Assembly (NCBI GenBank): GCA_027057185.1
Contig: JALUJE010000106.1
Location: 1 to 30,018, forward strand
DNA length: 30,018 nucleotides
Reading direction: 5' to 3'
Origin: Helicobacteraceae bacterium
GTDB taxonomy: Bacteria > Campylobacterota > Campylobacteria > Campylobacterales > Sulfurimonadaceae
Part shown: positions 9,726 through 25,740 of the stretch, piece by piece
How positions within the stretch are numbered: the stretch's first letter is position 1
Layout of the letters: each line of letters starts with the position of its first letter
Position numbers and translations under genes: made by a program
The notes under the pieces: model-generated
Database searches by the model: none
Told to the model about the DNA's origin: nothing
The model's input: the letters and a program-made list of their open reading frames with translations, nothing else

Positions 9726-9752
9726 TAAAGTTTTTGTTAAAGTGGTCGATAT
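9726..9752 (+). promoter_or_regulatory. Sigma28 (FliA) promoter for the cytochrome-MCP operon
   Basis: TAAAGTTT-N11-GTCGATAT against the consensus TAAAGTTT-N11-GCCGATAA; 37 bp upstream of ATG 9790. Confidence 0.75.
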
Positions 9753-9789
9753 AACTCGAAATAAAACCATCAACCCTAAAGGAGAAGTT

Positions 9790-10296: not shown

Positions 10297-10327
10297 TATT
10301 TGATACGTTAATTATAAGGAAATTGTT

Positions 10328-12735: not shown

Positions 12736-13560
12736 ATGAACACTGTTTTTATTACCGATTTGGATCATACCTTCTTGCGAAGCGACTTGAGTATTAGCCC
12801 CTATAGCGAACGTGTTTGGAATGCCAAAGCTGCACACAACACGCTTACGATTGCAACGGCGCGCAGTTTTAAAAAGAGTGAGCAGTTTGTCAAAAATTTA
12901 CATGTAAATGCTCCAATGATTTTACTTGATGGCTCTTTGATTGTCTCAGAAAGCAGACAGATTATTGAACGCCGATGTATTGACAAAGAGCTGGGTGATG
13001 CCGTGATTGATCTGGGTGCGACACTCAACAGTTTTCCGTTTGTACTGGCCCTTCAGGACACCGACTTGAATGAGGCATTTCTCTACCCCACACAGCGTAA
13101 TGTATATCAACATAGGTTGTTGCAACGCTACCGCGATGATGACAATTTACAAGAAGCGGCACACATCCGGGCGATGAAAGAGAATTTTAAACTGGTTTAT
13201 ATGGGAGAGGAAGCGATGCTGCAAGAACTTTACTTGCGTTTTAGAGAGATGTTCGGTGATGCGTTAAAGTATATTTTGGCACCTGAAGCGTATATGGGGT
13301 GTCATTTTTTAACGCTGTTACACCCGCATGCAGATAAAGCACACGGGTTAGAGTGTGTGAGCGAGTATTTAGGATGCCATCGGAGTGAGATGACCGTATT
13401 TGGCGATAACCTGAATGATTTGGGGATGTTTGAATATGCCGGTACTGCCGTTGCGGTAAAAAATGCGCATGATGTGCTTAAGGCGCGTGCGGACATTGTA
13501 TTGGAATACAGTAATGATGAAGATGGTGTCGCCAGATACCTAGAAGCGCAGAGAGGCTAA
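12736..13560 (+). CDS. Cof-type HAD-IIB sugar-phosphate phosphatase
   Basis: Motif I TDLDHT, motif II ATAR, K in ADKAHG, motif IV FGDNLND. Confidence 0.93.
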   Translation: MNTVFITDLDHTFLRSDLSISPYSERVWNAKAAHNTLTIATARSFKKSEQFVKNLHVNAPMILLDGSLIVSESRQIIERRCIDKELGDAVIDLGATLNSFPFVLALQDTDLNEAFLYPTQRNVYQHRLLQRYRDDDNLQEAAHIRAMKENFKLVYMGEEAMLQELYLRFREMFGDALKYILAPEAYMGCHFLTLLHPHADKAHGLECVSEYLGCHRSEMTVFGDNLNDLGMFEYAGTAVAVKNAHDVLKARADIVLEYSNDEDGVARYLEAQRG

Positions 13561-13561
13561 T

Positions 13562-14833
13562 ATGACAGAACGATCCTCCTTTTTTCCCATGGTCATTATC
13601 GGAATTCTCTTTTTTATTTTTGGCTTTGTCACATGGCTTAACGGCTCGTTGATTCCCTTTTTAAAAATTATCTGCGAGCTCAACGAGTTTGAAGCACTGC
13701 TGGTCACGTTTGCTTTTTATATTGCCTATACTGTGATGGCGCTGCCGATGTCGTACGTACTCAATCGTAGTGGATATAAAAAAGGTATGGCAATTGGTCT
13801 GGGTATTATGGCGATTGGAGCACTGCTTTTTATTCCTGCAGCATATAGCGGTAGTTTCTGGGTATTTCTACTGGCACTCTTTACGCTGGGAACCGGGCTG
13901 ACTATTTTGCAGACCGCCTCCAATCCCTATGTGGTACATATTGGTCCGCAAAAGAGTGCTGCGATGCGTATTAGTATTATGGGCATCATTAACAAAAGTG
14001 CCGGCGTATTGGTACCGCTGTTGTTTACCTCGCTAATTTTGAGCGATATGGGGAGTTTTCAGCAGGAGCATTTGAGCCTGTTGGAACGGGAGGCACTGGC
14101 TTCACGACTCATTGTTCCGTATCTGGTAATGGCGGCAACACTGATTGCGCTAATTGCATTAGTGATGTTCTGCGCACTTCCTGAGCTCGCACTGGAGACT
14201 CAAACAAATTCAGATAAGGAGGCGACTAGTATTTTACACTATCCTCGGGTGGTTCTTGGGGCGATGGCACTCTTTTTTTATGTCGGCATTGAAGTGATTG
14301 CCGGCGATACCATCGGACTTTTTGGTGCGGCGTTGGATGTGGAAAATTTTACAGCACTTACTTCATATACTATGGCTTTTATGGTATTGGGGTATCTTGT
14401 AGGCGTGACCCTTATTCCCAGATACCTTTCACAAGAACGTGCATTGCTGTTTTCGGCACTTTTTGGGCTTCTGTTTGTCGTGGGAGTTCTTCTCTCTTCA
14501 GCTGCGAGCACCGACCTTTCCGAAGCACTTTGGGGATGGAGCGGCATCGCGTTATTGCCTGATCCGGTGACCTTTGTGGCATTACTGGGTTTTGCCAATG
14601 CTCTGGTCTGGCCCACTATCTGGCCGCTGGCACTTGAAGGATTGGGAAAGCATACGGCGCAGGGCAGTGCATTATTGATTATGGGTATTGCCGGCGGTGC
14701 AATATTGCCGCTACTCTTTGGAACAGTGGCGCAACTGAGTACGCTACAGTCTGCATATGTTGTGGGTATTGCCTGCTATGTATTCATACTGTTCTATGCC
14801 GTCAAAGGGCATAAAATCGTGTGCTGGAGCTGA
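13562..14833 (+). CDS. gluP: Glucose/galactose MFS transporter (GluP/FucP family)
   Basis: LFFIFGFVTWLNGSL, LQTASNPYV, FFYVGIEV, GFANALVWPTIWPLAL, MGIAGGAILP; about 12 TMs. Confidence 0.88.
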   Translation: MTERSSFFPMVIIGILFFIFGFVTWLNGSLIPFLKIICELNEFEALLVTFAFYIAYTVMALPMSYVLNRSGYKKGMAIGLGIMAIGALLFIPAAYSGSFWVFLLALFTLGTGLTILQTASNPYVVHIGPQKSAAMRISIMGIINKSAGVLVPLLFTSLILSDMGSFQQEHLSLLEREALASRLIVPYLVMAATLIALIALVMFCALPELALETQTNSDKEATSILHYPRVVLGAMALFFYVGIEVIAGDTIGLFGAALDVENFTALTSYTMAFMVLGYLVGVTLIPRYLSQERALLFSALFGLLFVVGVLLSSAASTDLSEALWGWSGIALLPDPVTFVALLGFANALVWPTIWPLALEGLGKHTAQGSALLIMGIAGGAILPLLFGTVAQLSTLQSAYVVGIACYVFILFYAVKGHKIVCWS

Positions 14834-15687
14834 TGATGATTGTACATCATACAATGGAAAACGGCTTTGAATATCTTGAGATACGTAATGACAGTGCTAC
14901 TGCTAAAATCGCCTTGCAGGGAGCACATCTGTTTTACTATGCACGTCATGGGGATGCTCCGCTGCTGTGGGTGAGTAGAACCTCTGCTTTTGAGGCGGGG
15001 GAGGCAATTCGCGGCGGGGTGCCGTTATGCTGGCCATGGTTTGGCCAGCATCAGTACAACACCGAACTGCCACAGCATGGGTTTGCCCGTACTGCACGCT
15101 TTGAGCAGGTCGGCGCAACCGAAACTGAGGGTGCTACGAGTGTGACGTTTTGCTTGCGTGCTTCCGCAGAGAGTATGTTAGTGTTCCCGTATGCATTTGA
15201 ACTGCAGTATACGGTGAGAGTGGCACAGACGTTGACTCTGGAATTGACGACTTACAATCGTGATAGCCGGGCTTTTTCTCTTACTCAGGCACTGCACAGT
15301 TATTTTGCCGTTTCTAATATTGCCAATATACATGTAACAGGATTGGAAGGTCTGGATTATATTGATTATGTCAACGCGCAACGCCGAGAGCATCAGGACG
15401 GATCAGTAGTGATTGCGCAAGAAGTCGATCGTGTTTATGAGGGGGTGGTGTCACCGGTTGTGTTGGTGGATGCAACGCGTTGTATCGGTATTACTAATAC
15501 CGGCTCACGCTCTGTGGTGGTCTGGAACCCATGGATAGAAAAAGGGACACGTATGCGTGCTATGGAGCCGACGGGCTACCGGAGCATGCTCTGTATTGAG
15601 AGTGCGAACGCCCTTTGTGATGCCCGCACGATTGCACCGGAGCAGCATCACACGCTAACTGCGGTAATCAGTAGTACCATACTCTGA
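14833..15687 (+). CDS. D-hexose-6-phosphate mutarotase (aldose 1-epimerase, YeaD-like)
   Basis: LQGAH, AIRGGVPLCWPWFG, HGFAR, ALHSYF, EVDRVY, VVWNPW, MLCIESAN. Start is ATG 14833 (overlapping the gluP TGA) or 14836. Confidence 0.93.
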   Translation: MMIVHHTMENGFEYLEIRNDSATAKIALQGAHLFYYARHGDAPLLWVSRTSAFEAGEAIRGGVPLCWPWFGQHQYNTELPQHGFARTARFEQVGATETEGATSVTFCLRASAESMLVFPYAFELQYTVRVAQTLTLELTTYNRDSRAFSLTQALHSYFAVSNIANIHVTGLEGLDYIDYVNAQRREHQDGSVVIAQEVDRVYEGVVSPVVLVDATRCIGITNTGSRSVVVWNPWIEKGTRMRAMEPTGYRSMLCIESANALCDARTIAPEQHHTLTAVISSTIL

Positions 15688-16335
15688 TGCCCGAAGCGCC
15701 GTTAAACGTTCTGGAGTACCAATATCATGCCAGATTCCTTGGTATAACACACCACTAACACGTTGGTTAGTTGCCGCATTGCGTAACAGGGGTGCTAGTG
15801 GCTGTGATCCAGGGGAGAGATGCTCAAATAGCTCTGCGCGGTAATAACCGATACCGCTAAATGTGAATCGTGGAGTGCTATTATTGACAATATGCTCATG
15901 TACGAGGGCAAAATCTCCTTCTGGGTTATGGGAGGGGTTGGGTACGACAATGAGATGGGCAAGACAGCGCTTGAGCTGAATGTGAGGCATCACAGGGTAA
16001 TCGCACCAGATATCGCCGTTAATGACGAGAAATTCATTGCCTAAAAAGGGCAGTGCTTTGAGAATACCACCGGCACTCTCCAGAGCGCCGGTTGCTTGTT
16101 CATCAGAGTAGGTAATATGCAGACCCCACTGTGTACCATCTCCCAGAACTTCCGGAATTTTGTAACCCAGATGGGCGATGTTAATGACCACGTCTTTAAA
16201 GCCGTTGCGTGATAACCGTTCAAGGTGATGGACAATGAGCGGTTTGCCATAAACGGTTAGTAAGGGTTTGGGCAGGGTGTCGCTCAGCGGTCGCATGCGT
16301 TCACCGCGACCGGCAGCAAGAATCATTGCCGTCAC
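15655..16335 (-). CDS. murU: N-acetylmuramate alpha-1-phosphate uridylyltransferase
   Basis: AMILAAGRGERMRPLSDTLPKPLL, LESAGGI, NGDIWCD, NPEGDF, TFSGIGYY, WHDIGTPERL; clustered with amgK. Confidence 0.92.
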   Translation of the reverse strand: MTAMILAAGRGERMRPLSDTLPKPLLTVYGKPLIVHHLERLSRNGFKDVVINIAHLGYKIPEVLGDGTQWGLHITYSDEQATGALESAGGILKALPFLGNEFLVINGDIWCDYPVMPHIQLKRCLAHLIVVPNPSHNPEGDFALVHEHIVNNSTPRFTFSGIGYYRAELFEHLSPGSQPLAPLLRNAATNQRVSGVLYQGIWHDIGTPERLTALRASEYGTTDYRS

Positions 16336-16338
16336 AGG

Positions 16339-17229
16339 TTACAAACCGGTATCGCAGGCTTGAAACGAACCGCTTGTGAACCCGCGATTAAACCATGCCA
16401 TCCGTTGGGCAGCACTGCCATGAGTAAAGGTATCGGGTGCGACATATCCCTGTGCCTTTTTTTGCAGGGTGTCATCTCCAATAGCACTGGCGGCAGTGAG
16501 TGCTTCTTCAATATCGCCCGGTTCCAAAATACTACCTTTTGCATTGATGTAGTGTGCCCAGATCCCAGCGTAACAGTCGGCTTGAAGTTCCACTTTGACC
16601 TGTACGGCATTGGCCTGTGAACTGCTACGTGCCATCTGCTTTTCCTGATGGGATTTATTGAGTGTACCGACCAGATTTTGCACATGATGTCCAATCTCAT
16701 GCGCAATGACATAGGCCTGAGCAAAATCGCCCGGAGCACCGTGTCGACGGCTGAGTTCGTCAAAAAATCCTAAATCGAGATAGACTTTTTGGTCAACCGG
16801 ACAGTAAAACGGCCCTACCTGAGCATCGGCATAACCACACGCACACTGGACACTCTGGCGGAACAGTACTAGTTTGGGCTCACGGTAGGTTGTTCCAGCA
16901 GCGGCAAACTGTGTATGCCAGACGTCTTCGGTCTGTGCGAGCACCGCTGAGACAAATGCCGCGCTCTTATTGTCTTTTGCGGTAGTCTCAACAGCGTTAC
17001 TCTGAGGCACTGTAGCGGGAGTATTAAGCAGCGCCAAGGGGTTAAACCCCATAAAATAGGCTACAACACCGACAACAAGTACAATGCGTCCAATTTTAGT
17101 ACCAATGAGCATCTTGGCAAGCGGAAAGAGCAACCGCATCGCACCACGACCGCCTGAAGCACCGCGAACCGGACCGCGTGAGCGCATATCTTCAATATTG
17201 CCGCTTCGTCGTAAATCATCCCACTTCAT
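16339..17229 (-). CDS. ypfJ: Membrane-anchored neutral zinc metallopeptidase (YpfJ family)
   Basis: MKWDDLRRSGNIEDMR, one TM, GPFYCPVD, GDFAQAYVIAHEIGHHVQ, ELQADCYAG, FTHGSAAQR. Confidence 0.92.
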   Translation of the reverse strand: MKWDDLRRSGNIEDMRSRGPVRGASGGRGAMRLLFPLAKMLIGTKIGRIVLVVGVVAYFMGFNPLALLNTPATVPQSNAVETTAKDNKSAAFVSAVLAQTEDVWHTQFAAAGTTYREPKLVLFRQSVQCACGYADAQVGPFYCPVDQKVYLDLGFFDELSRRHGAPGDFAQAYVIAHEIGHHVQNLVGTLNKSHQEKQMARSSSQANAVQVKVELQADCYAGIWAHYINAKGSILEPGDIEEALTAASAIGDDTLQKKAQGYVAPDTFTHGSAAQRMAWFNRGFTSGSFQACDTGL

Positions 17230-18190
17230 GAAACTCCTTTGTGATATTTGGTAGGGTAATTTTTTCTAATAGTGTAGCAAGTTTTTCAGTTTTTTGATAC
17301 TTTTTGGCACTGCGAATCAGATATTTTAGTGTGAGGGACAGATCTTTCAGGTAATCACGTTTACCGTCACGCAGGTAGAGACGGCAAAAGATACCTAGCA
17401 CTTTTATGTGGCGTTGCATGCTTGTAAAGTCACACCAGCGCAAGAACGTGGCATCATCTGCCGAGATTTTTGCCATGTCGCGAAATGTTAGTGCCAGTGT
17501 ATCAATCTCTTGAGGGTTAAACGCAATATAGCAATCTTTTAACAATGAGATGAGGTCGTATGTGAGTGCACCGTTCATAGCATCTTGATAGTCAATGACC
17601 CCGATAGTACCCGAGGGTGGCATCATAATATTTCGGGAGTGAAAATCCCGGTGGACAAACAGACCCTGAGGTTGTGCGAGCACCTCAGTTGCAATGTCGT
17701 GGAGACTTTGTTCGAGCATTGTGCTCTGGAATGTGTTAAGATGCAGATGGAGATAACGGTGCAAGAACCACTCCGGCATGAGCTGCATTTCATGGAGTAA
17801 AAAGGAGCGATCATACAGGGGAAGATCTGTGACATCGACATGCTGCATGGTGACAATCTCCTGCATGGCTCGGGTGTAAAGGGCGTGATAGTTGTCTGCA
17901 TTTAGAATATTGAGATAGTGTGAGGAACCGAAATCTTCAAGAATTAAAAATCCCGCTTCCAGATTAGCATCGAAAATCTTGGGTGCATGAACTCCCGCGT
18001 TCAAGAGACGTGCCGTAATCTCCACAAAAGGTTTTAGTGAGGCTTTTTCCAAAGATGCATCCATAAGAATTACGCTCTGGTTTTGGTGTGTGAGTCGAAA
18101 GTAACGTCGAAAACTGGCATCGGCAGAGGCAACGTCACATTGCCAGGTGCGCCATGGCGTAGTAGCGAGATACGTTTCAATCGTGTGCAT
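17216..18190 (-). CDS. amgK: Anomeric MurNAc/GlcNAc kinase (aminoglycoside phosphotransferase fold)
   Basis: ASADASFRRYFR, LEDFG, HRDFHSRNIM, IDYQDA, YDLISLLKDCY, QRHIKVLGIFCRL..RDGK. Confidence 0.9.
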   Translation of the reverse strand: MHTIETYLATTPWRTWQCDVASADASFRRYFRLTHQNQSVILMDASLEKASLKPFVEITARLLNAGVHAPKIFDANLEAGFLILEDFGSSHYLNILNADNYHALYTRAMQEIVTMQHVDVTDLPLYDRSFLLHEMQLMPEWFLHRYLHLHLNTFQSTMLEQSLHDIATEVLAQPQGLFVHRDFHSRNIMMPPSGTIGVIDYQDAMNGALTYDLISLLKDCYIAFNPQEIDTLALTFRDMAKISADDATFLRWCDFTSMQRHIKVLGIFCRLYLRDGKRDYLKDLSLTLKYLIRSAKKYQKTEKLATLLEKITLPNITKEFHEVG

Positions 18191-19265
18191 ATATTCCTCC
18201 TAAAACGGTATCCCGCGTTGCCCCGGTAACACTGTGCAGAGCAACACTTTCTCGATGATGTCGTTTGTATGCGAGCCATGCAAATGCCATGGCCTCCATA
18301 AAACTGCTATCAATGCCGTAACGATCGGTACGGCAGACGGATATGTCTGCTAACAAGGAGCGAAGCTGTTTCAATAGATAGCTGTTTTTTTCATTGCTGC
18401 CACAGACAAGAAGTTGTGTTACCGGAAATTTTTTCACGTTATCGGCAATACTGAGTGCTGTGAGTTTGAGCAATGTTGCCTGCACATCGGCAGGTGTTAC
18501 ATGTAAATTGGACAATTTCTTGGTAAGCCAAACCTCGTTAAACCGTTCTCTACCAGTACTTTTGGGAGCATCAAGCAGAAAGTAAGGTTCTTGAAGCAGT
18601 CGTTGCAACAGTACCGGATGCACCTTGCCACTTTGTGCCCAGGTGCCTTCGTGATCGTATGCGACTTTCTGGTGGCGCTGAATCCATAGATCAAGCAGTA
18701 CATTGCCCGGTCCGGTATCATATCCCAGCAGTGGTTCGCCTATAATGGTAATATTTGCCATGCCGCCAATATTGACAACAGCATTGACTCCTGGTAATCG
18801 AGCGAAAAGAAACTGGTGAAATGCCGGAGCAAAAGGGGCACCTTGCCCACCAAGAGCAATATCTTTACTGCGAAAGTCGCTGATGACATCAATACCGGTC
18901 AGGACCGCGACGATAGAGGCATCGCCTAGTTGCATGGAAAAAGGATGGTCTGCATTGGGAGCATGCCAGAGGGTTTGTCCATGCAGACCGATGGCGGCGA
19001 TCTTGTCGGGAGTGAGGGAGGTTTGTGCCAGCAACGCGTGAACCGCTTGAGCAAACAGATGTCCTAGACGGTGGTGTAGTGATCCAACCTTTGACAAGGC
19101 AGACGGTTCGGAGACGAGATGTAGTACGATACTTCTGAGTGTTTCAGAGAAAGGGTATTCATGTGCCGCGATGAGTGCGCATTGGTCTTGATCCAGCTCG
19201 CACAGCACGACGTCAACACTATCGAGACTGGTACCGGACATGATACCGATGTAGTACTGACTCAT
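18177..19265 (-). CDS. anmK: Anhydro-N-acetylmuramic acid kinase (two conserved Gly motifs altered)
   Basis: GIMSGTSLD, HGQTLWH, DFRSKDIALGGQGAP, NIGGMANIT, DTGPGN, PKSTGRE, EAMAFAWLA. Confidence 0.93.
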   Translation of the reverse strand: MSQYYIGIMSGTSLDSVDVVLCELDQDQCALIAAHEYPFSETLRSIVLHLVSEPSALSKVGSLHHRLGHLFAQAVHALLAQTSLTPDKIAAIGLHGQTLWHAPNADHPFSMQLGDASIVAVLTGIDVISDFRSKDIALGGQGAPFAPAFHQFLFARLPGVNAVVNIGGMANITIIGEPLLGYDTGPGNVLLDLWIQRHQKVAYDHEGTWAQSGKVHPVLLQRLLQEPYFLLDAPKSTGRERFNEVWLTKKLSNLHVTPADVQATLLKLTALSIADNVKKFPVTQLLVCGSNEKNSYLLKQLRSLLADISVCRTDRYGIDSSFMEAMAFAWLAYKRHHRESVALHSVTGATRDTVLGGIYAHD

Positions 19266-19341
19266 GTCCTGCCCCTTCCTCGAAATTTTATAAGGTCGTG
19301 TACATTTAGAATGGAGATGCTCAAACGCCTCTTTGTCTATG

Positions 19342-19347
19342 ATTATA
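19342..19347 (-). promoter_or_regulatory. Candidate internal -10 for anmK-amgK-ypfJ-murU
   Basis: Perfect TATAAT on the minus strand within the 91-bp gap between the symporter stop and the anmK start. Confidence 0.4.
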
Positions 19348-19356
19348 GCGTAGAAT

Positions 19357-20838
19357 TCATCTCTTTTTCAATTGCATAATCCCAAACGATACGGCGGTAC
19401 CTAGGACAATCTGCCACGCGAAGCCGACATCGGCGCCAAAGAGATAGGGTTGTAGTGCCAGGACGGTGATAAAGCCGCCAATGAGCGCATACAACACACT
19501 GCGTTCATTGCCGCGTTGGGTAAAAATAGCGGCACCGTATACGCCCAGAAGTCCTGAATAGGCAAATGCCATGACCCCAAGTGCAAAACTGAGTAGCGGC
19601 AGCTCACTATCGTGATGCACAAGATAACTGAGGATGGCCATAAGAGAGAGGGCTATAGCAAATCCAAGTACGCCCAGACGCGCGGCAGTGACAAAATGCG
19701 CATCATCGACAGGAGAATGTCGGAGTTTTAGCGGCTTGTAGATATCTTCTATGGCAACGGATGCCATAGCTCCGAGTACCGAGTTGGTACTTGAAAGTGC
19801 TGCCGCAACCGCCCCGACCGTGACGAGACCTTTAAGTCCTTCGGGCATCTCATTCAAAATATAGTACATAAAAATGGTAACCGGTTCTCCTTGGAACTGT
19901 TGTGCAATCTCATGATGTCGGTAGAAGAGGTACAGTAGCAGTCCAATGGCTAAAAAGAGTAGTACGACGGGAATGGTAAAGAGAATGGAGTAGTAGAGTG
20001 AGCGTTGCCCCGAGAGCGTGTCTTTGCAGCTCAGTACCCGCTGTGTCATATCTTGATCCAGCCCATAGGCGGCAATATTGAGCAGTAGCCATCCTGTAAG
20101 TAGTCCAAAAATATTAAATTTTCCTTCCGATGAAAAACTGAGATTCCAGTCAATCAGACGGAGCTTATCATCTGCTTGCAGGGTTGCTATGATTGTGCTC
20201 AGATCACTATCGAGCGTTGTGTAAAGATAGACCAAGACGGCAATACCAGCACCGATATAAGTAATGGCTTGAATGATATCACTAAAAATAACCGACTTCA
20301 CTCCACCAACATAGGTGTAGGATAGTGCGCCAATCATGAGGAGTGCTATTGCATAGCTAACATGTAAAAAGGCAATGTCGTTAAAGAGAATCATGGAGAC
20401 TGCCAGCGCACCAATATAGAGTCGTGCCCCGCTTGCAAAGAGCCTGCCCAGCAAGAACATGATACCTGCATAGCGTTTGGCTCGTTTACCGTAACGACGC
20501 TCCAGCAGTTCATAGACAGTGACGGCATTAATGGCGTAAAAACGGGGAATCAGGATTTTAGCAACCACTAGTATTGCTAAGAGTGCTGAGAGGTAAAACC
20601 CTAAAAACGTAAGGTCGTGGCGGTAGGAGTACTCCGGACCGCCTAAAAACGTTGCTGCAGATTGAGAGGTTGCCAGCACCGAGATTGCAACAGCCAACAT
20701 CGGCATTCGATTGGAACCGACGAAGTAGTCGCGAGAGGTGTGAATTTTAGCTTGTGAGAGCAGTAAAGAGGTTATGGCAAGCATGAGGAAATAGGCACCA
20801 AACACCAGCCAGTCAAGCGTGGCAAATCCGCTCTGCAT
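19357..20838 (-). CDS. Sodium:solute symporter (SSS family), candidate (anhydro)MurNAc/amino-sugar importer
   Basis: SxDYFVG, AISVLATSQSAATFLGGP, YELLERRYG, YTYVGGVKSVIFSDIIQ, DQDMTQRVL, AAALSS; about 13 TMs. ATG overlaps the nagZ stop. Confidence 0.9.
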   Translation of the reverse strand: MQSGFATLDWLVFGAYFLMLAITSLLLSQAKIHTSRDYFVGSNRMPMLAVAISVLATSQSAATFLGGPEYSYRHDLTFLGFYLSALLAILVVAKILIPRFYAINAVTVYELLERRYGKRAKRYAGIMFLLGRLFASGARLYIGALAVSMILFNDIAFLHVSYAIALLMIGALSYTYVGGVKSVIFSDIIQAITYIGAGIAVLVYLYTTLDSDLSTIIATLQADDKLRLIDWNLSFSSEGKFNIFGLLTGWLLLNIAAYGLDQDMTQRVLSCKDTLSGQRSLYYSILFTIPVVLLFLAIGLLLYLFYRHHEIAQQFQGEPVTIFMYYILNEMPEGLKGLVTVGAVAAALSSTNSVLGAMASVAIEDIYKPLKLRHSPVDDAHFVTAARLGVLGFAIALSLMAILSYLVHHDSELPLLSFALGVMAFAYSGLLGVYGAAIFTQRGNERSVLYALIGGFITVLALQPYLFGADVGFAWQIVLGTAVSFGIMQLKKR

Positions 20839-22556
20839 CAATCTGCTTTTTCTGGAGCCGGTTGTAGCCCTAAGTCACGTACCCCGTGGCGTACCTGTGT
20901 CATAAAGGCATTACCGGGGTCAGCTTTGAGAGTACGATAGTTGCTGTCTTGCTCCAGCCAAAGTGGTGAGGACTCCATACTGCGATACTCATGATGACCG
21001 ATGAGGTATGTAATACCGGGATATTTGTTTTTGAGGTAGCGTACCAACACAATGTTCGCACGTACCTGAGCCGGGGTTAAGTCCTCATGGGTATTGTGTT
21101 CACCGCCAACATTTTCAATGCCGATGCTTGAGTAGTTTAAGCCGATGACATGGCGTGCCATCCAAGTTTCGGGCATGAGCCGGTAGATGGTACCGTCACG
21201 ATCTACTATAAAATGTGCCGAAACATTCAGTTGTCCGGCATTGGCAATATCGCTGCGGTCGTGAAAGAGTGTTTCGCCTTCAAGCCGCTTAAAAGCGTCA
21301 TGAAGATTCATGATGGCAGTCCAGTGCAGCACAATGATTTTTGGCGTTATGGTAATATCACTGACATTGAGGTCATAATGCTGTTGAATGTATTGGCGTG
21401 TCATGGCAATACGGTCGATGCCGAACTTTATAGGGCGGTCAATAATTTTAGGTGAAGCCGTCATGCGCCGTCGCAAAGCATTGATGCGTCGGTAGGATTC
21501 TTGAATGCGTGCCATGGGAATGGCTCCGGCATGTACCAGGGCCACCATGGTCTCCACCAGAGTTTCAATACGGTTGTGGGTGAGCTGATTGCCAAAGAGT
21601 AGTATATCGACCCCGGCATTGACGGCGAGGGTAAGTGTCGTATTGAGATCGTACTGTTTTGAGATGGCTTTCATCTGAAGGTCATCACTGATAATGATAC
21701 CCCGGTAGCGCATCTTATGGCGTAGCAGATCGCTGTTGACCCGATAAGAAAGGGTTGCGGGGTAGGTGGCATCGAGGGTGGCATTGTAAACATGAGCGGT
21801 CATAATCATATCGACCTTGTTCTCATGAATGAGTTGGCGGTAGGGCTCAAGTTCTACAGGATCCCAGCTTTGTGTTACATCGACGAAGCCTTCGTGAGAG
21901 TCTCCTAAAGAGGAGCCATGACCGGGAAAATGTTTGAGTACGCTGATAATACCTTCTTGATCTTGTGCTCTAATGAGCAGCTTGGCATAATGAACTACGG
22001 TATCGGAATCTTTGGCATAGGCACGCTCTAGGGCGACAATCACTTTGTTTTTTGGGTTACGTGCCAAATCAACTACAGGGGCAAAATTACAGTTAATGCC
22101 GTTGGCATGTAATTCCTGAGCGAGGGTGGCATACATATTTTTGGCGTTGGTGTCATTAGCTCCGGCAGCAAGAGCCGCTGCACTGGGAATGGCACGAAAG
22201 CCATACGCAGGTTTCATACGGGCAACGTTTCCGCCCTCCTGATCTATGGCGATGAGTAGCGGGTAAGATGATGCAGTTTGCAGCTGTGTGGTGAGCGTTT
22301 GCAACTGTTGGGGCGATCGAATATTTTTCGTACGGTTGCGGTCATGAAAATCTCTATCAAATAAAACCACTCCGCCAAGACGATATTGTGATAGATAACG
22401 ATAAAGTTCGCTGTTTTCATTGAGGTACTCGCCATCAAAGCCTACCACCAGCATGGAAGAAATCATGGTTTTGAGCTCGTCGTCACTCACCGGCTTGCTC
22501 GTTGCATAAAGCGGTAGCAGCAGGACCAGTATGAGTAGGGTTGCCATTTTGAGCAC
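20838..22556 (-). CDS. nagZ: Exported fusion: GH3 beta-N-acetylglucosaminidase (NagZ) plus C-terminal Amidase_2 N-acetylmuramoyl-L-alanine amidase
   Basis: GH3 motifs DQEGG.VAR, NFAPVVDL, KHFPGHG..GDSH and ISDDLQM. Amidase motifs VLHWTA, SAHFIV, GIENVG, GHHE and KADPG. Signal peptide present. Start reassigned to GTG 22556 (SD AAGGAG). Confidence 0.9.
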   Translation of the reverse strand: MLKMATLLILVLLLPLYATSKPVSDDELKTMISSMLVVGFDGEYLNENSELYRYLSQYRLGGVVLFDRDFHDRNRTKNIRSPQQLQTLTTQLQTASSYPLLIAIDQEGGNVARMKPAYGFRAIPSAAALAAGANDTNAKNMYATLAQELHANGINCNFAPVVDLARNPKNKVIVALERAYAKDSDTVVHYAKLLIRAQDQEGIISVLKHFPGHGSSLGDSHEGFVDVTQSWDPVELEPYRQLIHENKVDMIMTAHVYNATLDATYPATLSYRVNSDLLRHKMRYRGIIISDDLQMKAISKQYDLNTTLTLAVNAGVDILLFGNQLTHNRIETLVETMVALVHAGAIPMARIQESYRRINALRRRMTASPKIIDRPIKFGIDRIAMTRQYIQQHYDLNVSDITITPKIIVLHWTAIMNLHDAFKRLEGETLFHDRSDIANAGQLNVSAHFIVDRDGTIYRLMPETWMARHVIGLNYSSIGIENVGGEHNTHEDLTPAQVRANIVLVRYLKNKYPGITYLIGHHEYRSMESSPLWLEQDSNYRTLKADPGNAFMTQVRHGVRDLGLQPAPEKAD

Positions 22557-22629: not shown

Positions 22630-22652
22630 TTTAGCATAAAGAGGAGATGACT

Positions 22653-23069
22653 ATGCAGCGATTAACCCCCAATATGGCAGTCAAAGATGTTGCCAAAAGC
22701 AGTGCGTTTTATAGAGATGTTTTAGGCTTTGAGCTGCTGATGGCAGTAGCGGAAGAGAAGAGCGGCTTTGATACGGATCTTGATGGAAGCAAACACTATA
22801 TTTGGGCCATGTTGAAACATGGTGGTGTCGAGGTGATGTTACAAGAAGATACCAGTTTAAAAGAGGATGTAGGTGATTTTTTCAGTACTATTGGTGCATC
22901 GATAACGTTGTATATTAACGTTGAAGACGTGGAAGTGTACTACCATGCCCTGCAAGAGAACGTGGCAATTGTTAAACCTCTTGAGACGACATGGTACGGC
23001 ATGCGCGAGTTTTATATGCGAGACTGTAACGGATATATTTTGGCCTTTGCCACACAAGAAGCGGTATGA
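22653..23069 (+). CDS. VOC / glyoxalase / bleomycin-resistance family protein
   Basis: LTPNMAVKDVAKSSAFYRDVLGF ... LYINVEDV ... TTWYGMREFYMRDCNGYILAF. ATG 22653 fits the SD spacing better than 22647. Confidence 0.92.
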   Translation: MQRLTPNMAVKDVAKSSAFYRDVLGFELLMAVAEEKSGFDTDLDGSKHYIWAMLKHGGVEVMLQEDTSLKEDVGDFFSTIGASITLYINVEDVEVYYHALQENVAIVKPLETTWYGMREFYMRDCNGYILAFATQEAV

Positions 23070-23204
23070 TATTTTGAGATCTCGATGCCCGTCTACTCGT
23101 AAAAAAACGGGACAACGTTGTATCAGTAGTATCAAAGCTTACCAAAAAACATAACTTTAAGTGGCAGGGATGGGGTAATGCACAAACCTTACACAAAATA
23201 ACAC

Positions 23205-23237
23205 TATAATGATCCTTTAAAAATTTATTAAAGGATC
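23205..23237 (+). promoter_or_regulatory. -10 box followed by a perfect 10-bp inverted repeat (candidate operator)
   Basis: TATAAT at 23205-23210, then GATCCTTTAA-N7-TTAAAGGATC at 23211-23237, overlapping the SD. Confidence 0.55.
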
Positions 23238-23241
23238 TTCT

Positions 23242-25740
23242 ATGACGTACAACACGGCACGGGTGCTAAGCACGATATTTGCGGCGGGAATTATTTTGAC
23301 AGGATGTGGGGGTAATGATCAAAGCGCTACAACAGCACCGTCTACCCAGGAGCTACGGGGTGCTTTAGTCAAAGGACCTATTTCAGGCGCGACGATTCGA
23401 GTGTACGATGCTGAACATAATGAAATTGCTACAACGACATCATCTGAAGGTACGTTTGTGTTACCGTCCATTGAACTTCAAAGTCGTTATTATATTATTG
23501 TAAGTGACGGGGGAACCTACACAGATGAATCCACACAAAAATTGGTTAGTATTCCTGCGGGAGAAGGGTTGCAAACCTTACTCACATCTGATGAAATTCA
23601 GGAAATGTTGGCACAACAGCAATGGATGGCATTAACTCCGGAGACGACCCTATTTTCAATATTGACTCAAAAAAAATTGTTAGAGTACAATCTCTCTGAG
23701 TCAATGTTTCAGGCTAACCGTGTTATTGATGATACCTTAATTAAAAACTCATCACCGATGCCTAATGTATCAGGTGATGTATTTACGAAACAAGGAGATT
23801 TGACGAAAGCACTTCCTGCAAACACAAATCAGGCTTTTGCAAAAAACAGGATTGTTGCTTATTCGGTCATGATGCGCAATTTGGGCATAGAACCCGTTCG
23901 GGTGTTTGAGATATTGACGAAGCTAACGGACGACCTTAAAGACGGTATGGCCGATGGCATCGATATTGACGGTAAAGAGATTGACATACCGCAGGAATAT
24001 GCTCTTGCTCGAACACAGCTTTTTAATGAAACCACCACTAAGTTGCGTGAAGGAAATTTAAGCAATGCCCAGACAGAGGCTCTGCGCATGATGGGATTTG
24101 ATGTTGACATGCTTCAAGCAGATAAAGACAAAAGCACCGATGCACTGGATGCTAAAGTGGCAACATACCTCAAGTCAACGACCTTACCGATGTTGCATAG
24201 GTTGGAAACCTTGATAGATGAAGATGGCAATCTCGAAGATACTGCGGCAACCTACACGCTAACAGCGCGTCACGATGTTAATGTTACCATAGAGACCCCT
24301 ACAGGATCCTGGATTACTCCTATGTGGCGGTATAACAACCAACCCCTGCCTGTTGTGATTCGAGCCAATCGTGGTACTGACATGACTTTGAATTTTAACA
24401 ATCAGTTGAATGCAGATTCTACGATCCATTGGCATGGCTTTAAAATTCCCGCCATTATGGATGGTGGTCCCGACGTGCCGGTTGCCTCAGGTCAGTCTAA
24501 AGCCTACGCCTTCACCATGCAGCAGCCGGCGGCACCACTCTGGTTCCATCCACATCCCGATATGCAGACCGGAAAGCAGGTCTATATGGGATTGGCCGGT
24601 GTATTTTTGCTTGAAGACACCATTAGTAAAGAACTCGAAGCTGATAATAAGCTTCCCTCAGGAACACGAGATATAGTATTGCTGATTCAAGACCGACGCT
24701 TTGCGGCAGAGTCACAAGGCGTTAGAGCCTTAGAGTATAAGACGATGCCGATGGATAGTGACGGGATGCTTGGTGATACCATTTTAGTAAACGGCTCGGT
24801 TATGCCCAAGTTTGAAGTCGGTACGGTTCAGTATCGATTGAGATTATATAATGTCTCCAATGCCAGAAGTTATGATTTTGCTTTTCATGATCACCGTATA
24901 TTTAAAGTGGTCGCCACAGATGGCGGTCTGTTAAAAGAGCCGGTAACGGTGGATCATATTACTCTAGGAGCTGCAGAGCGTGCAGAAATAGTTGTAGACT
25001 TTTCACAAGACGCCGTTGGTTCAAAGGTGGTGATGGTGAGCCAACCGGGCAAAGGGGATATCATGAACATGATGGGAACGATGGATACGTCCGGGAACAA
25101 TGTCTCGGGTATGAATCGGATGATGGACAATATGGGATCGGGCAATATGAGTACCCCAACGGGCAGTGGTATGTCAGATGCAGCAGAAGGGTTTGTGCTG
25201 ATGCGATTTGATGTGACCCATGAGGTAAAGGATGAGGTGAGACTCTATACGACATTGCCTTCACGTGCAGAAATCACCGGTCGATTGCAAGAGAATGACG
25301 CCGTTAATGCCGGCAATGAACGAGAGTTTGTTATGTCGATGGTTCGAGGAGGAAACAGTGCCATGGCATCTGATGGCATGAACATGCTTTTTACCATTAA
25401 TGGCAAATTGTTTGATATGAATCGGGTAGATGAGTTTATAGATGCCAATACCGTTGAGATTTGGAGTATTAAAAATATGTCACCCATGGCACACCCTTTT
25501 CATGCCCATGCCATTCAGTATCAGATTCTTGATCGAAACGGTGTTGCTGCATCCGGAGTCGATCTTGGATGGAAAGATACCTTTTTAGTGCAGCCTGGAG
25601 AGACTATTAGAATTATTGGTAAATTTGAACCGGTGAATCAGGGGGACTATATGTATCACTGTCATATTTTAGAACATGAAGATGCGGGCATGATGGGATT
25701 TTTTAGAGTGGGTGCTACCGGTAATGTAGGGAGTCGGTAA
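23242..25740 (+). CDS. Lipoprotein multicopper oxidase (CueO/laccase-like, Met-rich loop) with an N-terminal extension of about 300 aa
   Basis: Lipobox ILTGC. Copper motifs HWHG, WFHPH, HPFHAH and HCHILEHEDAGMM. Met-rich insert in the last third. Confidence 0.92.
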   Translation: MTYNTARVLSTIFAAGIILTGCGGNDQSATTAPSTQELRGALVKGPISGATIRVYDAEHNEIATTTSSEGTFVLPSIELQSRYYIIVSDGGTYTDESTQKLVSIPAGEGLQTLLTSDEIQEMLAQQQWMALTPETTLFSILTQKKLLEYNLSESMFQANRVIDDTLIKNSSPMPNVSGDVFTKQGDLTKALPANTNQAFAKNRIVAYSVMMRNLGIEPVRVFEILTKLTDDLKDGMADGIDIDGKEIDIPQEYALARTQLFNETTTKLREGNLSNAQTEALRMMGFDVDMLQADKDKSTDALDAKVATYLKSTTLPMLHRLETLIDEDGNLEDTAATYTLTARHDVNVTIETPTGSWITPMWRYNNQPLPVVIRANRGTDMTLNFNNQLNADSTIHWHGFKIPAIMDGGPDVPVASGQSKAYAFTMQQPAAPLWFHPHPDMQTGKQVYMGLAGVFLLEDTISKELEADNKLPSGTRDIVLLIQDRRFAAESQGVRALEYKTMPMDSDGMLGDTILVNGSVMPKFEVGTVQYRLRLYNVSNARSYDFAFHDHRIFKVVATDGGLLKEPVTVDHITLGAAERAEIVVDFSQDAVGSKVVMVSQPGKGDIMNMMGTMDTSGNNVSGMNRMMDNMGSGNMSTPTGSGMSDAAEGFVLMRFDVTHEVKDEVRLYTTLPSRAEITGRLQENDAVNAGNEREFVMSMVRGGNSAMASDGMNMLFTINGKLFDMNRVDEFIDANTVEIWSIKNMSPMAHPFHAHAIQYQILDRNGVAASGVDLGWKDTFLVQPGETIRIIGKFEPVNQGDYMYHCHILEHEDAGMMGFFRVGATGNVGSR

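What the first reader, a model, noticed from the sequence alone, without database searches (positions are those of the whole stretch)
15655..22556. AmpG-independent peptidoglycan recycling or scavenging cluster in a probable Campylobacterota genome
Seen: co-oriented, mostly overlapping genes for an exported NagZ-amidase, an SSS symporter, anmK, amgK, ypfJ and murU. Known: in E. coli and Pseudomonas, intact anhydro-muropeptides enter through AmpG and are cut in the cytoplasm by NagZ and AmpD. AmgK-MurU bypasses MurA/MurB and raises fosfomycin tolerance. H. pylori and C. jejuni lack the canonical route. Inference: here muropeptides are cut outside the cytoplasm and the free (anhydro)MurNAc is imported by a Na+ symporter. 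That is a different layout, with an uncharacterised transporter.
Basis: partly seen in the sequence, partly recalled or inferred. Interest (0 to 1): 0.68.

Follow-up and report, generated by a model that had tools for sequence, protein, structure and literature searches.

The report
AmpG-free periplasm-first cell-wall sugar salvage
A sulfur-oxidising Campylobacterota genome has an intact operon that appears to trim cell-wall fragments outside the cytoplasm, import the freed muramic-acid sugar through an uncharacterised sodium symporter and rebuild it into wall precursor, which points to a new transporter family for this sugar.

Summary
On the minus strand, 15655-22556 encodes an exported NagZ-amidase fusion, an SSS symporter, AnmK, an AmgK-like kinase, YpfJ and MurU. 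The genes are tightly packed. A HAD phosphatase, a NagP-like GlcNAc permease and a mutarotase (12736-15687) converge on the operon.

- No AmpG, MurP-type PTS, MurQ, NagA, Mpl or MupP orthologue was found in this MAG (80.6% complete) or in complete relatives.
- Every NagZ or amidase homologue examined has a signal peptide.
- SSS and AnmK occur in exactly the same 65 of 151 family genomes.
- SSS relatives in Gammaproteobacteria sit in MurK-like/AnmK/MurQ/NamZ operons, and one relative is fused to NamZ.
- The SSS keeps the Na+ sites and carboxylate-binding Ser/Thr of the sialic-acid transporter SiaT, but has its own Arg133/Ala136/Arg140 signature.

YpfJ is found only in this genus among the genomes searched and is not a core part. 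The logic resembles Bacillus subtilis and Tannerella, so this is a new variant of a known kind. Transport has not been tested.

This scan noted the same system earlier on other DNA: e1-5260538, e1-5246490, e1-4093008 and e1-5280468.

The parts
20838..22556 (-). Exported bifunctional enzyme of 572 aa. It has an N-terminal Sec signal peptide (MLKMATLLILVLLLPLYA|TS), a GH3 NagZ-type beta-N-acetylglucosaminidase domain and a C-terminal Amidase_2 (AmiD/AmpDh-like) N-acetylmuramoyl-L-alanine amidase domain.
   Evidence: PF00933 at 233 bits and PF01510 at 70.7 bits. The NagZ motif KHFPGHGSSLGDSH is at residue 208 and SDDL at 290. The amidase motifs LHWTA (410), GIENVG (479), GHHEY (520) and ADPG (545) are present. 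The best PDB relatives are GH3 N-acetylglucosaminidases, including the secreted B. subtilis YbbD/NagZ. Signal peptides are conserved in 17 of 17 homologues. The start codon is supported by the RBS and by the 572-aa protein P0275.
19357..20841 (-). Sodium:solute symporter (SSS/SLC5 fold, 493-494 aa). It is the proposed Na+-coupled importer of free anhydro-MurNAc and/or MurNAc.
   Evidence: PF00474 at 97.7 bits. The best solved relative is SiaT 5nv9, E 2.4e-41. The SiaT Na2 and Na3 residues and the carboxylate-binding Ser/Thr are conserved, and R133/A136/R140 is a clade signature. It co-occurs with AnmK in the same 65 of 151 genomes. Context is conserved across phyla.
19266..19356 (-). The only sizeable intergenic gap in the operon (91 nt). 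A sigma-70-like site matching 11 of 12 positions lies at 19371-19342 and may be an internal promoter for anmK-amgK-ypfJ-murU.
   Evidence: The total number of promoter-like sites in the region is no higher than in shuffled sequence, so this is only a lead.
18177..19265 (-). AnmK, anhydro-N-acetylmuramic acid kinase. It converts anhMurNAc plus ATP to MurNAc-6P.
   Evidence: PF03702 at 454 bits; NF007139 at 468 bits against a cut-off of 367.
17216..18190 (-). AmgK-like anomeric MurNAc/GlcNAc kinase with an APH fold.
   Evidence: The best NCBIfam family is AmgK (NF045759, E 4e-70, profile positions 10-321 of 324), but it scores below the cut-off (236 against 550). PF01636 scores 93 bits. The catalytic-loop motifs HRDFHSRN and IDYQD are present. 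It always lies beside MurU in relatives.
16339..17229 (-). YpfJ-family zinc metallopeptidase (HEIGHH). It has an Arg-rich N-terminus and one transmembrane helix, so the catalytic domain is predicted to face the periplasm. Among the genomes searched it is found only in this genus.
   Evidence: NF050010 at 359 bits against a cut-off of 250. Sequence read. It was found only in own-genus genomes (G000, G004; loci L013, L014, L034) and not in three complete genomes of other genera.
15655..16335 (-). MurU, MurNAc-alpha-1-phosphate uridylyltransferase. It produces UDP-MurNAc.
   Evidence: NF045761 at 288 bits against a cut-off of 250.
14821..15687 (+). Aldose 1-epimerase-family mutarotase (288 aa). 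It is translationally coupled to the NagP-like gene, and its 3' end overlaps the 3' end of murU by 33 nt. It may supply the alpha-anomer of GlcNAc to the anomeric kinase.
   Evidence: PF01263 at 138 bits. The HAD-NagP-epimerase triad recurs beside the cluster in many Sulfurimonas loci. The proposed role is inferred.
13562..14833 (+). NagP-like MFS sugar permease. It is the proposed importer of the GlcNAc released by NagZ.
   Evidence: NF046060 NagP at 516 bits, below the cut-off of 625. TIGR01272 gluP subfamily at 238 bits against 202.
12736..13560 (+). Cof-type HAD-IIB sugar phosphatase. It is a candidate non-orthologous replacement for MupP (MurNAc-6P to MurNAc).
   Evidence: TIGR00099 at 127 bits. 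No MupP orthologue is present: the best HAD_2 protein scores 121 bits against a cut-off of 359. The HAD occurs in 64 of 65 SSS-positive genomes but also in 20 of 86 SSS-negative ones. It often lies within a few kb of murU. The proposed role is inferred.

Best explanation
This is a periplasm-first, AmpG-independent, purely anabolic salvage route for peptidoglycan amino sugars.

Proposed steps:
1. Lytic transglycosylases release GlcNAc-anhMurNAc-peptides in the periplasm.
2. The exported NagZ-amidase fusion removes GlcNAc and the stem peptide there, which leaves free anhMurNAc. It would leave MurNAc if the fragments came from other cells.
3. The SSS symporter imports the free acidic sugar with Na+.
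4. AnmK converts anhMurNAc to MurNAc-6P.
5. A phosphatase, probably the linked Cof-type HAD, yields MurNAc.
6. The AmgK-like kinase makes MurNAc-alpha-1-P, and MurU makes UDP-MurNAc. This bypasses MurA/MurB.
7. The released GlcNAc probably enters through the neighbouring NagP-like permease. The epimerase would mutarotate it, AmgK would phosphorylate it at C1, and GlmU would uridylate it.

Shown by sequence: gene identities, intactness, signal peptides, conserved synteny, co-occurrence, and the failure to find alternative routes.

Inferred: the SSS substrate, and the roles of the HAD, the epimerase and NagP. YpfJ may degrade the freed peptides in the periplasm, which is speculative.
For: -
- Export: signal peptides are present in the window protein and in 17 of 17 homologues. 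Stand-alone amidases carry SPI or lipobox signals.
- No alternative importer or cytoplasmic trimming was found.
  - AmpG: 0 of 1, 0 of 151, and 0 of 251 above the cut-off.
  - No PTS EIIC and no AmpD above the cut-off.
  - There is only one NagZ in the genome.
- The route is anabolic only. No MurQ, no NagA and no Mpl were found. MurA is present. SLT lytic transglycosylases are present.
- The SSS is linked to AnmK.
  - Both occur in the same 65 of 151 genomes, with patchy presence inside six genera.
  - They are adjacent or close in most loci.
- The SSS is linked to MurNAc metabolism in other lineages.
  - Gammaproteobacterial orthologues of about 50% identity lie in SSS-BadF kinase-(AnmK)-MurQ-NamZ operons with MurR and NagZ.
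  - A 45% relative lies next to AnmK and a MurQ-like SIS gene. A 41% relative follows a MurQ-like gene. A 51% relative lies next to NamZ.
  - P0210 is an SSS-NamZ fusion.
- Transport chemistry.
  - The closest solved relative is the Na+/sialic-acid symporter SiaT.
  - The SiaT carboxylate ligands S60 and T63 correspond to S61 and T64, which are invariant in 98 of 98 sequences.
  - The Na2 (S350/S351) and Na3 (D188/S354) residues are kept.
  - The clade carries R133 and R140 in place of SiaT R135.
- The SSS tree gives one Campylobacterota clade inside a supported group with the gammaproteobacterial clades. The NanM-fused sialic-acid types form the outgroup.
Against: - No transport, enzyme or localisation assay exists. 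The substrate assignment is by context only.
- The window's genome is a MAG of 80.6% completeness, so absences in it are weak. They rest mainly on complete relatives.
- The AmgK-like, NagZ and NagP-like proteins all score below their NCBIfam equivalog cut-offs (236 against 550, 193 against 207, 516 against 625).
- The MurNAc-6P phosphatase step has no identified orthologue. The HAD candidate also occurs in 20 genomes that lack the pathway.
- In some genera NagZ or the amidase is not adjacent to the SSS. In 21 of 58 named loci AnmK was not within the fetched flank, and some of those flanks are short.
- Signal peptides were judged by eye and by conservation, not with a trained predictor.
Confidence: 0.72

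Rival explanations
1. The machinery is the same, but its main role is scavenging peptidoglycan debris from other bacteria in dense sulfidic mats or vent biofilms, not recycling the cell's own wall. Exported enzymes would trim foreign fragments, and the SSS would import MurNAc or anhMurNAc as a free building block.
For: - Some Sulfurovum-type loci add the exo-muramidase NamZ directly upstream (L035, L052, L069, L091). NamZ releases non-anhydro MurNAc from glycan ends.
- The gammaproteobacterial orthologues sit in catabolic MurQ/NamZ operons.
- AmgK can use imported MurNAc directly without AnmK.
- T. forsythia uses a comparable periplasmic layout for scavenging.
Against: - AnmK, which is specific for the 1,6-anhydro turnover product, co-occurs perfectly with the SSS.
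- No NamZ lies in this window.
- No dedicated outer-membrane uptake gene lies in the cluster.
- MurA is present, so there is no auxotrophy.
- The two roles are not mutually exclusive.
Confidence: 0.2
2. The SSS carries some other solute, such as GlcNAc, another acidic sugar or a monocarboxylate. Free anhMurNAc would then enter by an unidentified route, and the gene order would reflect co-regulation rather than a shared substrate.
For: - The substrate is untested.
- The nearest characterised homologues carry sialic acid, monocarboxylates, vitamins or iodide.
- More distant relatives of 29-31% identity are fused to the sialic-acid mutarotase NanM.
- TIGR00813 scores below its cut-off.
Against: - The SSS and AnmK show identical presence and absence in 151 genomes.
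- Independent association with MurQ, AnmK, NamZ and a MurK-like kinase recurs in other lineages, and one relative is fused to NamZ.
- The SiaT substrate residues R135 and Q82 are replaced throughout the clade.
- A separate NagP-like permease is available for GlcNAc.
- No MurQ is present, so no D-lactate is produced.
Confidence: 0.1
3. The exported NagZ-amidase is mainly an autolysin or cell-separation enzyme, and its place at the head of the operon is incidental. In that case the imported species would not be the product of this enzyme.
For: - Amidase_2 and GH3 enzymes can act in wall remodelling.
- Stand-alone amidase homologues occur in many family genomes that lack the SSS and AnmK. NagZ/amidase is found in 101 of 151 genomes against 65 of 151 for the SSS.
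Against: - A NagZ, an amidase or the fusion lies directly upstream of the SSS in 46 of 58 named loci, often with overlapping stop and start codons.
- NagZ-type GH3 enzymes are exo-acting on soluble muropeptides, not on sacculi (established knowledge of the family).
- Fusing the two trimming activities makes sense if the product needed is a monosaccharide.
Confidence: 0.07

Closest known systems
Pseudomonas anabolic MurNAc recycling shortcut: AmpG, NagZ, AmpD, AnmK, MupP, AmgK, MurU (Gisin 2013; Borisova 2017, PMC5371407)
   Same: The cytoplasmic back half is the same. AnmK makes MurNAc-6P, which is dephosphorylated. AmgK makes MurNAc-alpha-1-P and MurU makes UDP-MurNAc, bypassing MurA/MurB. 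As in Pseudomonas, there is no MurQ.
   Different: The front half differs. No AmpG was found. NagZ and the amidase are fused and exported rather than cytoplasmic. A monosaccharide is imported by an SSS symporter. No MupP orthologue is present, and a linked Cof-type HAD-IIB is the candidate instead. The genes are clustered in one operon.
Bacillus subtilis muropeptide rescue: murQ-murR-murP-amiE-nagZ-namZ (Litzinger 2010; PMC8054146)
   Same: The logic is the same. Secreted NagZ and a secreted MurNAc-L-Ala amidase trim muropeptides outside the cytoplasm, and the free sugar is then imported. The best solved relatives of the NagZ domain include B. subtilis YbbD/NagZ.
   Different: In B. subtilis, import is through the PTS transporter MurP and the fate is catabolic through MurQ. 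No PTS EIIC or MurQ was found here. AmiE, by my recollection and not checked here, belongs to a different family from Amidase_2. This organism is a diderm, so the products are 1,6-anhydro sugars that need AnmK.
Tannerella forsythia MurNAc salvage: periplasmic NamZ1/2, MurT, MurK, MurQ, AmgK/MurU, AmpG
   Same: Periplasmic exo-enzymes free the monosaccharide, a non-PTS secondary transporter imports MurNAc, and AmgK/MurU feed UDP-MurNAc. The gammaproteobacterial SSS-kinase-MurQ-NamZ operons mirror murTKQ.
   Different: TfMurT is reported as distantly related to NagX (PMC9007349). PMC5790795 describes it inconsistently, as both 'sodium symporter superfamily' and 'MFS'. I could not fetch its sequence, so homology to this SSS is untested and seems unlikely. 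T. forsythia is a MurNAc auxotroph and keeps AmpG. This organism has MurA and no AmpG was found in it.
SiaT, Na+/sialic-acid symporter of Proteus mirabilis (PDB 5nv9; PMC5931594)
   Same: Both have the SSS/LeuT fold (E 2.4e-41). The Na2 (Ser342/343) and Na3 (Asp182, Ser346) residues are conserved, as are the carboxylate-binding Ser60 and Thr63. The substrate would also be an N-acetylated acidic sugar.
   Different: SiaT Arg135 is Ala136 here, flanked by the invariant Arg133 and Arg140. Gln82, which binds the glycerol tail, is Phe here and Thr or Ser in the gammaproteobacterial clade. Gln250 is Ala. The gene context is AnmK, MurQ and NamZ rather than nan genes. In the tree the NanM-fused sialic-acid types are the outgroup.
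E. coli AmiD and P. aeruginosa AmpDh2/AmpDh3 (periplasmic Amidase_2 enzymes)
   Same: These are exported Amidase_2 zinc amidases that remove stem peptides from muropeptides, including anhydro forms, in the periplasm. The Sulfurovum stand-alone homologues even carry lipoboxes like AmiD.
   Different: Here the amidase is fused to the C-terminus of a NagZ and heads a salvage operon. Similarity to solved Amidase_2 structures is modest (E about 1e-10). Substrate range is untested.

Membership tests
Anabolic MurNAc recycling pathway (AnmK-MupP-AmgK-MurU) | AnmK, anhydro-MurNAc kinase | tested here: met
   PF03702 at 454 bits; NF007139 at 468 bits against a cut-off of 367.
Anabolic MurNAc recycling pathway (AnmK-MupP-AmgK-MurU) | AmgK, anomeric MurNAc/GlcNAc kinase | tested here: inconclusive
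   The best family is AmgK, with a full-length match at E 4e-70. It scores 236 bits against a cut-off of 550. The APH catalytic motifs are present. It is always adjacent to MurU.
Anabolic MurNAc recycling pathway (AnmK-MupP-AmgK-MurU) | MurU, MurNAc-1-P uridylyltransferase | tested here: met
   NF045761 at 288 bits against a cut-off of 250.
Anabolic MurNAc recycling pathway (AnmK-MupP-AmgK-MurU) | MupP, HAD-IA MurNAc-6P phosphatase | tested here: not met
   HAD_2 proteins of G000 and G001 score at most 121 bits on NF009696, whose cut-off is 359. A linked Cof-type HAD-IIB is proposed as an analogue.
Canonical Gram-negative muropeptide import (AmpG with cytoplasmic NagZ and AmpD) | AmpG permease present | tested here: not met
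   TIGR00901 gave no hit in G000, 0 of 151 family genomes and 0 of 251 phylum genomes above the cut-off.
Canonical Gram-negative muropeptide import (AmpG with cytoplasmic NagZ and AmpD) | NagZ and AmpD lack signal peptides (cytoplasmic) | tested here: not met
   The single NagZ-amidase has an N-terminal Sec-type signal, conserved in 17 of 17 homologues. No AmpD scores above its cut-off.
Sodium:solute symporter family (PF00474 / TC 2.A.21) | Profile match and conserved Na2-site residues | tested here: met
   PF00474 at 97.7 bits against a cut-off of 22.8. TIGR00813 at 161 bits is below its cut-off of 184. The equivalents of SiaT Ser342/343 (S350/S351) and Ala56 (A57) are conserved.
SiaT-type sialic-acid SSS transporters | Arg135 salt bridge and Gln82 contact to Neu5Ac; nan-gene or NanM context | tested here: not met
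   The aligned positions are Ala136 and Phe82. R133 and R140 are invariant instead in 98 of 98 sequences. The context is AnmK, AmgK and MurU.
NagZ-type GH3 beta-N-acetylglucosaminidase | GH3 N-terminal domain with the KH(F/I)PG(H/L)GxxxxD(S/T)H motif | tested here: met
   PF00933 at 233 bits. KHFPGHGSSLGDSH is at residues 208-221 of the 572-aa protein. NF003740 at 193 bits is just under its cut-off of 207.
Amidase_2 N-acetylmuramoyl-L-alanine amidases (AmiD/AmpD/T7 lysozyme fold) | PF01510 domain with a His/His/Asp zinc-ligand pattern | tested here: met
   PF01510 at 70.7 bits. Candidate ligands lie in LHWTA, GHHEY and ADPG. The ligand assignment is by motif position and not by structure.
B. 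subtilis-type extracellular muropeptide rescue | PTS MurP import and MurQ etherase | tested here: not met
   No PTS_EIIC and no MurQ above its cut-off were found in five genomes, three of them complete.

The most novel reading that the evidence does not exclude
The SSS clade marked by the TM3 signature G-R133-x-x-A136-x-G-x-R140 (98 of 98 sequences) is a previously unrecognised family of Na+-coupled permeases for free MurNAc and anhydro-MurNAc. It is spread across Campylobacterota, Gammaproteobacteria and other lineages. In Sulfurimonadaceae and their relatives it, together with exported trimming enzymes, does the job that AmpG does elsewhere. The linked Cof-type HAD-IIB would then be a non-orthologous MupP.
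Probability: 0.55. Interest if true: 0.7.

Novelty: new variant of a known kind. Interest (0 to 1): 0.6.

Why it matters
Peptidoglycan recycling has been worked out mainly in Enterobacteria and Pseudomonas (AmpG) and recently in Alphaproteobacteria (YejBEF-YepA). No route has been described for Campylobacterota in the literature I could search.

If this reading holds, it would do the following:
- Define a third import strategy for diderm bacteria: cut to monosaccharides in the periplasm, then import by Na+ symport.
- Assign a function to a widespread and so far unnamed SSS subfamily, giving (anh)MurNAc a dedicated secondary transporter.
- Predict intrinsic fosfomycin tolerance in these bacteria and low release of NOD-stimulating muropeptides.
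- Provide a compact gene set (transporter, AmgK, MurU) of the kind used for metabolic labelling of cell walls with MurNAc probes.

Cultured carriers exist, so experiments are feasible. They include Sulfurimonas paralvinellae, S. microaerophilica, S. gotlandica GD1 and S. crateris.

Tried and rejected
The 8-sequence alignment A2 worked.
- The context of the deep relative P0133 was uninformative because the contigs are short.
- The promoter and terminator scan found no more sites than in shuffled sequence. Only the 11-of-12 site in the SSS/anmK gap is worth noting.
- I tried to settle whether T. forsythia MurT is an SSS protein.
  - The key paper (PMC5075041) is not held.
  - Other papers disagree: 'sodium symporter superfamily' and 'MFS' in PMC5790795, and 'distantly related to NagX' in PMC9007349.
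  - I could not fetch the sequence, so this remains open.
- Literature searches for an SSS-type MurNAc or anhMurNAc transporter found nothing relevant. A search term containing a colon was rejected.
- My first script to extract stand-alone amidase ORFs picked the wrong frames. It was redone.
- I considered and rejected these ideas:
  - YpfJ as a core pathway member. It is found only in this genus among the genomes searched.
  - MurQ-type catabolism. No MurQ or NagA was found.
  - Mpl-dependent peptide reuse. No Mpl scores above its cut-off.
  - The neighbouring VOC/glyoxalase gene as a FosB-type partner. It scores only 23 bits against a cut-off of 260 and is not conserved next to the operon.
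- I did not fold the SSS, because the tools return no coordinates with which to decide whether R133 or R140 faces the pocket.

Full report
**1. What is in the sequence**

The window is contig C106 of a MAG of 1.72 Mb in 302 contigs, 80.6% complete and 3.6% contaminated. Between 15655 and 22556 the minus strand carries six intact genes:
- a GH3 NagZ domain fused to an Amidase_2 domain (20838-22556)
- a sodium:solute symporter (19357-20838/20841)
- anmK (18177-19265)
- an AmgK-like APH-fold kinase (17216-18190)
- a YpfJ-family zinc peptidase (16339-17229)
- murU (15655-16335)

AnmK, YpfJ and MurU pass their NCBIfam equivalog cut-offs. The kinase has AmgK as its best family (E 4e-70, full length) but scores below the cut-off (236 against 550 bits).

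The long ORF that runs to 22637 is not the real start. The GTG at 22556 follows an AAGGAG site. Homologues align only from about residue 28. A database protein of 572 aa and 99% identity uses this start.

The junctions are tight. The NagZ stop and the SSS start share a base (TGATG). There are 14-nt overlaps at anmK/amgK and amgK/ypfJ, and a 3-nt gap before murU. The only real gap is 91 nt between the SSS and anmK.

**2. Organism and native status**

SSS and NagZ-amidase homologues carry the names Sulfurimonas, Sulfurovum, Sulfuricurvum, Sulfurimonadaceae and Arcobacteraceae. The window also encodes an HP0495-family protein. Same-genus contigs (L013, L014, L034) share the flanking MCP, MORN and leuC genes as well as the operon. 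The region is therefore native and not contamination.

**3. The wider unit**

Three plus-strand genes converge on murU:
- a Cof-type HAD-IIB phosphatase (12736-13560)
- a NagP-like MFS permease (13562-14833)
- an aldose-1-epimerase-family protein (14821-15687), whose 3' end overlaps the murU 3' end by 33 nt

This triad lies next to the operon in several genera (L003, L007, L011, L012, L047, L050, L055, L058, L064). In Sulfurovum and Arcobacteraceae the HAD alone follows murU (L036, L051, L054, L063, L068, L069).

**4. Are the trimming enzymes exported?**

The 572-aa protein begins MLKMATLLILVLLLPLYA|TS. All 17 NagZ or NagZ-amidase homologues taken from relatives start with a basic residue, a hydrophobic run of 12-16 residues and a small-x-small cleavage-type site.

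Where the amidase is a separate gene next to the SSS, as in Sulfurovum, it has either such a signal or a lipobox such as LLTFTAC|G, as E. coli AmiD does.

The genome has only this one NagZ and no AmpD above its cut-off. The NagZ motif KHFPGHGSSLGDSH, the SDDL motif and the amidase motifs are intact. I had no trained signal-peptide predictor, so export is a well-supported prediction and not a measurement.

**5. Is there a canonical route?**

- AmpG (TIGR00901) was not found in the MAG.
- It was not found in any of 151 genomes of the family, 115 of them of high quality.
- It was not found above the cut-off in 251 genomes of the phylum. Seventeen genomes have weak AmpG-like hits, none in this family.

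The remaining families were searched in five genomes: the MAG, a same-genus MAG and three complete genomes. The results were:
- no PTS EIIC, hence no MurP or NagE
- no MurQ
- no NagA
- no Mpl
- no MupP orthologue in the two genomes whose HAD_2 proteins were scanned, G000 and G001
- MurA present
- SLT-type lytic transglycosylases present

The cell can therefore make anhydro-muropeptides and synthesise UDP-MurNAc de novo. The cluster is an anabolic, sugar-only salvage bypass and is neither a catabolic pathway nor an auxotroph's lifeline.

**6. What does the symporter carry?**

Four independent lines point to free MurNAc and/or anhMurNAc.

(a) Phylogenetic profile.
- The SSS and AnmK are present in exactly the same 65 of 151 family genomes and absent from the same 86.
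- The distribution is patchy inside six genera, and one genome has two copies of both.
- Relatives are not independent, so this is not a formal statistic. The match is nevertheless complete.

(b) Synteny in Campylobacterota.
- A NagZ, an amidase or the fusion lies directly upstream of the SSS in 46 of 58 named loci.
- AnmK-AmgK-MurU lies downstream in 37 of 58. Several of the rest are short contigs.

(c) Other lineages.
- A sister set of gammaproteobacterial SSS proteins of about 50% identity comes from Vibrio, Rheinheimera, Pseudoalteromonas, Paraglaciecola, Alishewanella, Neptunicella and Cardiobacteriaceae.
- These lie in operons of the form MurR/NagZ | SSS - BadF-type (MurK-like) kinase - (AnmK) - MurQ - NamZ.
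- A 51% relative is followed by NamZ.
- A 45% relative is divergent from AnmK plus a MurQ-like SIS gene.
- A 41% relative directly follows a MurQ-like gene.
- One 913-aa protein is an SSS-NamZ fusion.

(d) Transport chemistry.
- The best solved relative is the Na+/sialic-acid symporter SiaT (5nv9, E 2.4e-41). Next come the monocarboxylate, multivitamin and iodide SLC5 carriers.
- I mapped the published SiaT residues (PMC5931594) through the alignment onto 98 clade members.
- The carboxylate ligands Ser60 and Thr63 are invariant, as S61 and T64. The Na2 site (S350/S351) and the Na3 site (D188, S354) are kept.
- SiaT Arg135 is Ala136 in every member, while Arg133 and Arg140, one helical turn to either side, are invariant. 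The two NanM-fused sialic-type relatives have Gln/Arg/Val at these three positions.
- The residues that hold the glycerol tail of Neu5Ac are replaced (Gln82 to Phe, Thr or Ser; Gln250 to Ala).

This is what one would expect of a Na+-coupled carrier for a different N-acetylated acidic sugar. It remains an inference.

In a maximum-likelihood tree the Campylobacterota proteins form one clade (SH-aLRT 100) inside a supported group with the gammaproteobacterial clades. The NanM-fused proteins form the outgroup. The tree gives no direction of transfer.

**7. Proposed mechanism**

Shown:
- the identities and intactness of the genes
- the export signals
- the conserved order and the co-occurrence
- the failure to find AmpG, MurP, MurQ, NagA, Mpl or a cytoplasmic NagZ or AmpD

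Inferred:
1. Lytic transglycosylases release GlcNAc-anhMurNAc-peptides.
2. The periplasmic fusion enzyme removes GlcNAc and the peptide.
3. The SSS imports anhMurNAc, and MurNAc if available, with Na+.
4. AnmK opens the anhydro ring with inversion to give MurNAc-6P (PMC10570956).
5. A phosphatase gives MurNAc.
6. AmgK and MurU give UDP-MurNAc (pathway as in PMC5371407).

For the phosphatase step the linked Cof-type HAD is the best candidate. It is present in 64 of 65 SSS-positive genomes and is often within a few kb. It also occurs in 20 of 86 SSS-negative genomes, so I give it about 45%.

For the GlcNAc branch, GH3 enzymes are retaining (established knowledge) and so release beta-GlcNAc. The NagP-like permease and its translationally coupled mutarotase could deliver alpha-GlcNAc to the anomeric kinase. 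With no NagA found, this would be the only productive fate. I give this about 40%.

**8. YpfJ**

YpfJ has an Arg-rich N-terminus, one transmembrane helix and a HEIGHH domain that the positive-inside rule places in the periplasm. It is in the operon only in this genus. It was not found at all in three complete genomes of other genera. It is an insertion in this genus among the genomes searched and not a core part. A role in degrading the freed stem peptides is possible but speculative.

**9. Comparison with what is known**

- The back half is the Pseudomonas AnmK-(MupP)-AmgK-MurU shortcut.
- The front half follows the logic of B. subtilis, which uses secreted NagZ and AmiE and then imports the monosaccharide (PMC8054146). 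It also follows T. forsythia, which uses periplasmic NamZ and then MurT. The transporter and the fate of the sugar differ in both cases.
- According to PMC7670621, E. coli can take up free anhMurNAc through MurP. A free-anhMurNAc importer is therefore not unknown in principle, but no secondary carrier for it has been described in the literature I could search.
- I could not test whether TfMurT is an SSS protein. The published descriptions conflict.

I file this as a new variant of a known kind.

**10. Earlier notes of this scan**

The same system was noted on other genomes. Entries e1-5260538 and e1-5246490 were followed up and reached the same reading. Entries e1-4093008 and e1-5280468 are first-reader notes. 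I reached my reading before seeing them, and I tested its elements independently here.

**11. Limits**

The window's genome is incomplete, so absences rest on relatives. Several proteins score below strict equivalog cut-offs. Signal peptides were judged by inspection. The co-occurrence counts are not phylogenetically corrected.

Noticed in passing
window 22647-26248: A block of a VOC/glyoxalase-family gene, an 832-aa multicopper oxidase and an Ogt methyltransferase lies between the NagZ-amidase gene and leuC. In the same-genus contig L013, also fetched as L034, leuC follows NagZ directly. The block therefore looks like an insertion of about 3.7 kb specific to this genome. The VOC gene has only a faint FosB/bleomycin-type match (23 bits against a cut-off of 260).
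   Followed up: partly
window 19342-19371 (minus strand): A sigma-70-like site matching 11 of 12 positions (TTGAAA, 18 nt, TATAAT) lies at the 3' end of the SSS gene, just before the only intergenic gap of the operon. It may be an internal promoter for anmK-amgK-ypfJ-murU. The overall count of such sites is at chance level.
   Followed up: no
L106 (Flavobacterium sp. W21_SRS_FM6) 10001-11527: The only Bacteroidota-labelled SSS among the best 80 loci is nested inside the Alteromonadaceae clade, next to Paraglaciecola (SH-aLRT 95). This suggests recent horizontal transfer or a mislabelled or contaminated assembly.
   Followed up: no
L104 (Rheinheimera pacifica) 6742-9841: Next to the SSS-kinase-MurQ-NamZ operon lie a 633-aa GH3 NagZ and a NagX-like membrane protein (NF046061, 170 bits, below its cut-off). 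NagX belongs to the family that one paper says is distantly related to T. forsythia MurT. Both candidate MurNAc-carrier types may therefore coexist in one locus.
   Followed up: no
G037 (family genome), contigs C12 and C36: One genome of the family carries two copies each of the SSS and AnmK, on different contigs. Both SSS copies are about 60% identical to the window's protein.
   Followed up: no
window 15655-15687: The 3' ends of murU (minus strand) and the epimerase gene (plus strand) overlap by 33 nt. Convergent transcription here could produce antisense interference between the two units.
   Followed up: no
L035, L052, L069, L091 (Sulfurovum-type loci): Some Campylobacterota loci carry the exo-beta-N-acetylmuramidase NamZ (GH171) just upstream of the amidase-SSS pair. 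The NamZ paper describes this family as mainly in Bacteroidetes, with rarer cases in Firmicutes, Actinobacteria and Gammaproteobacteria.
   Followed up: partly
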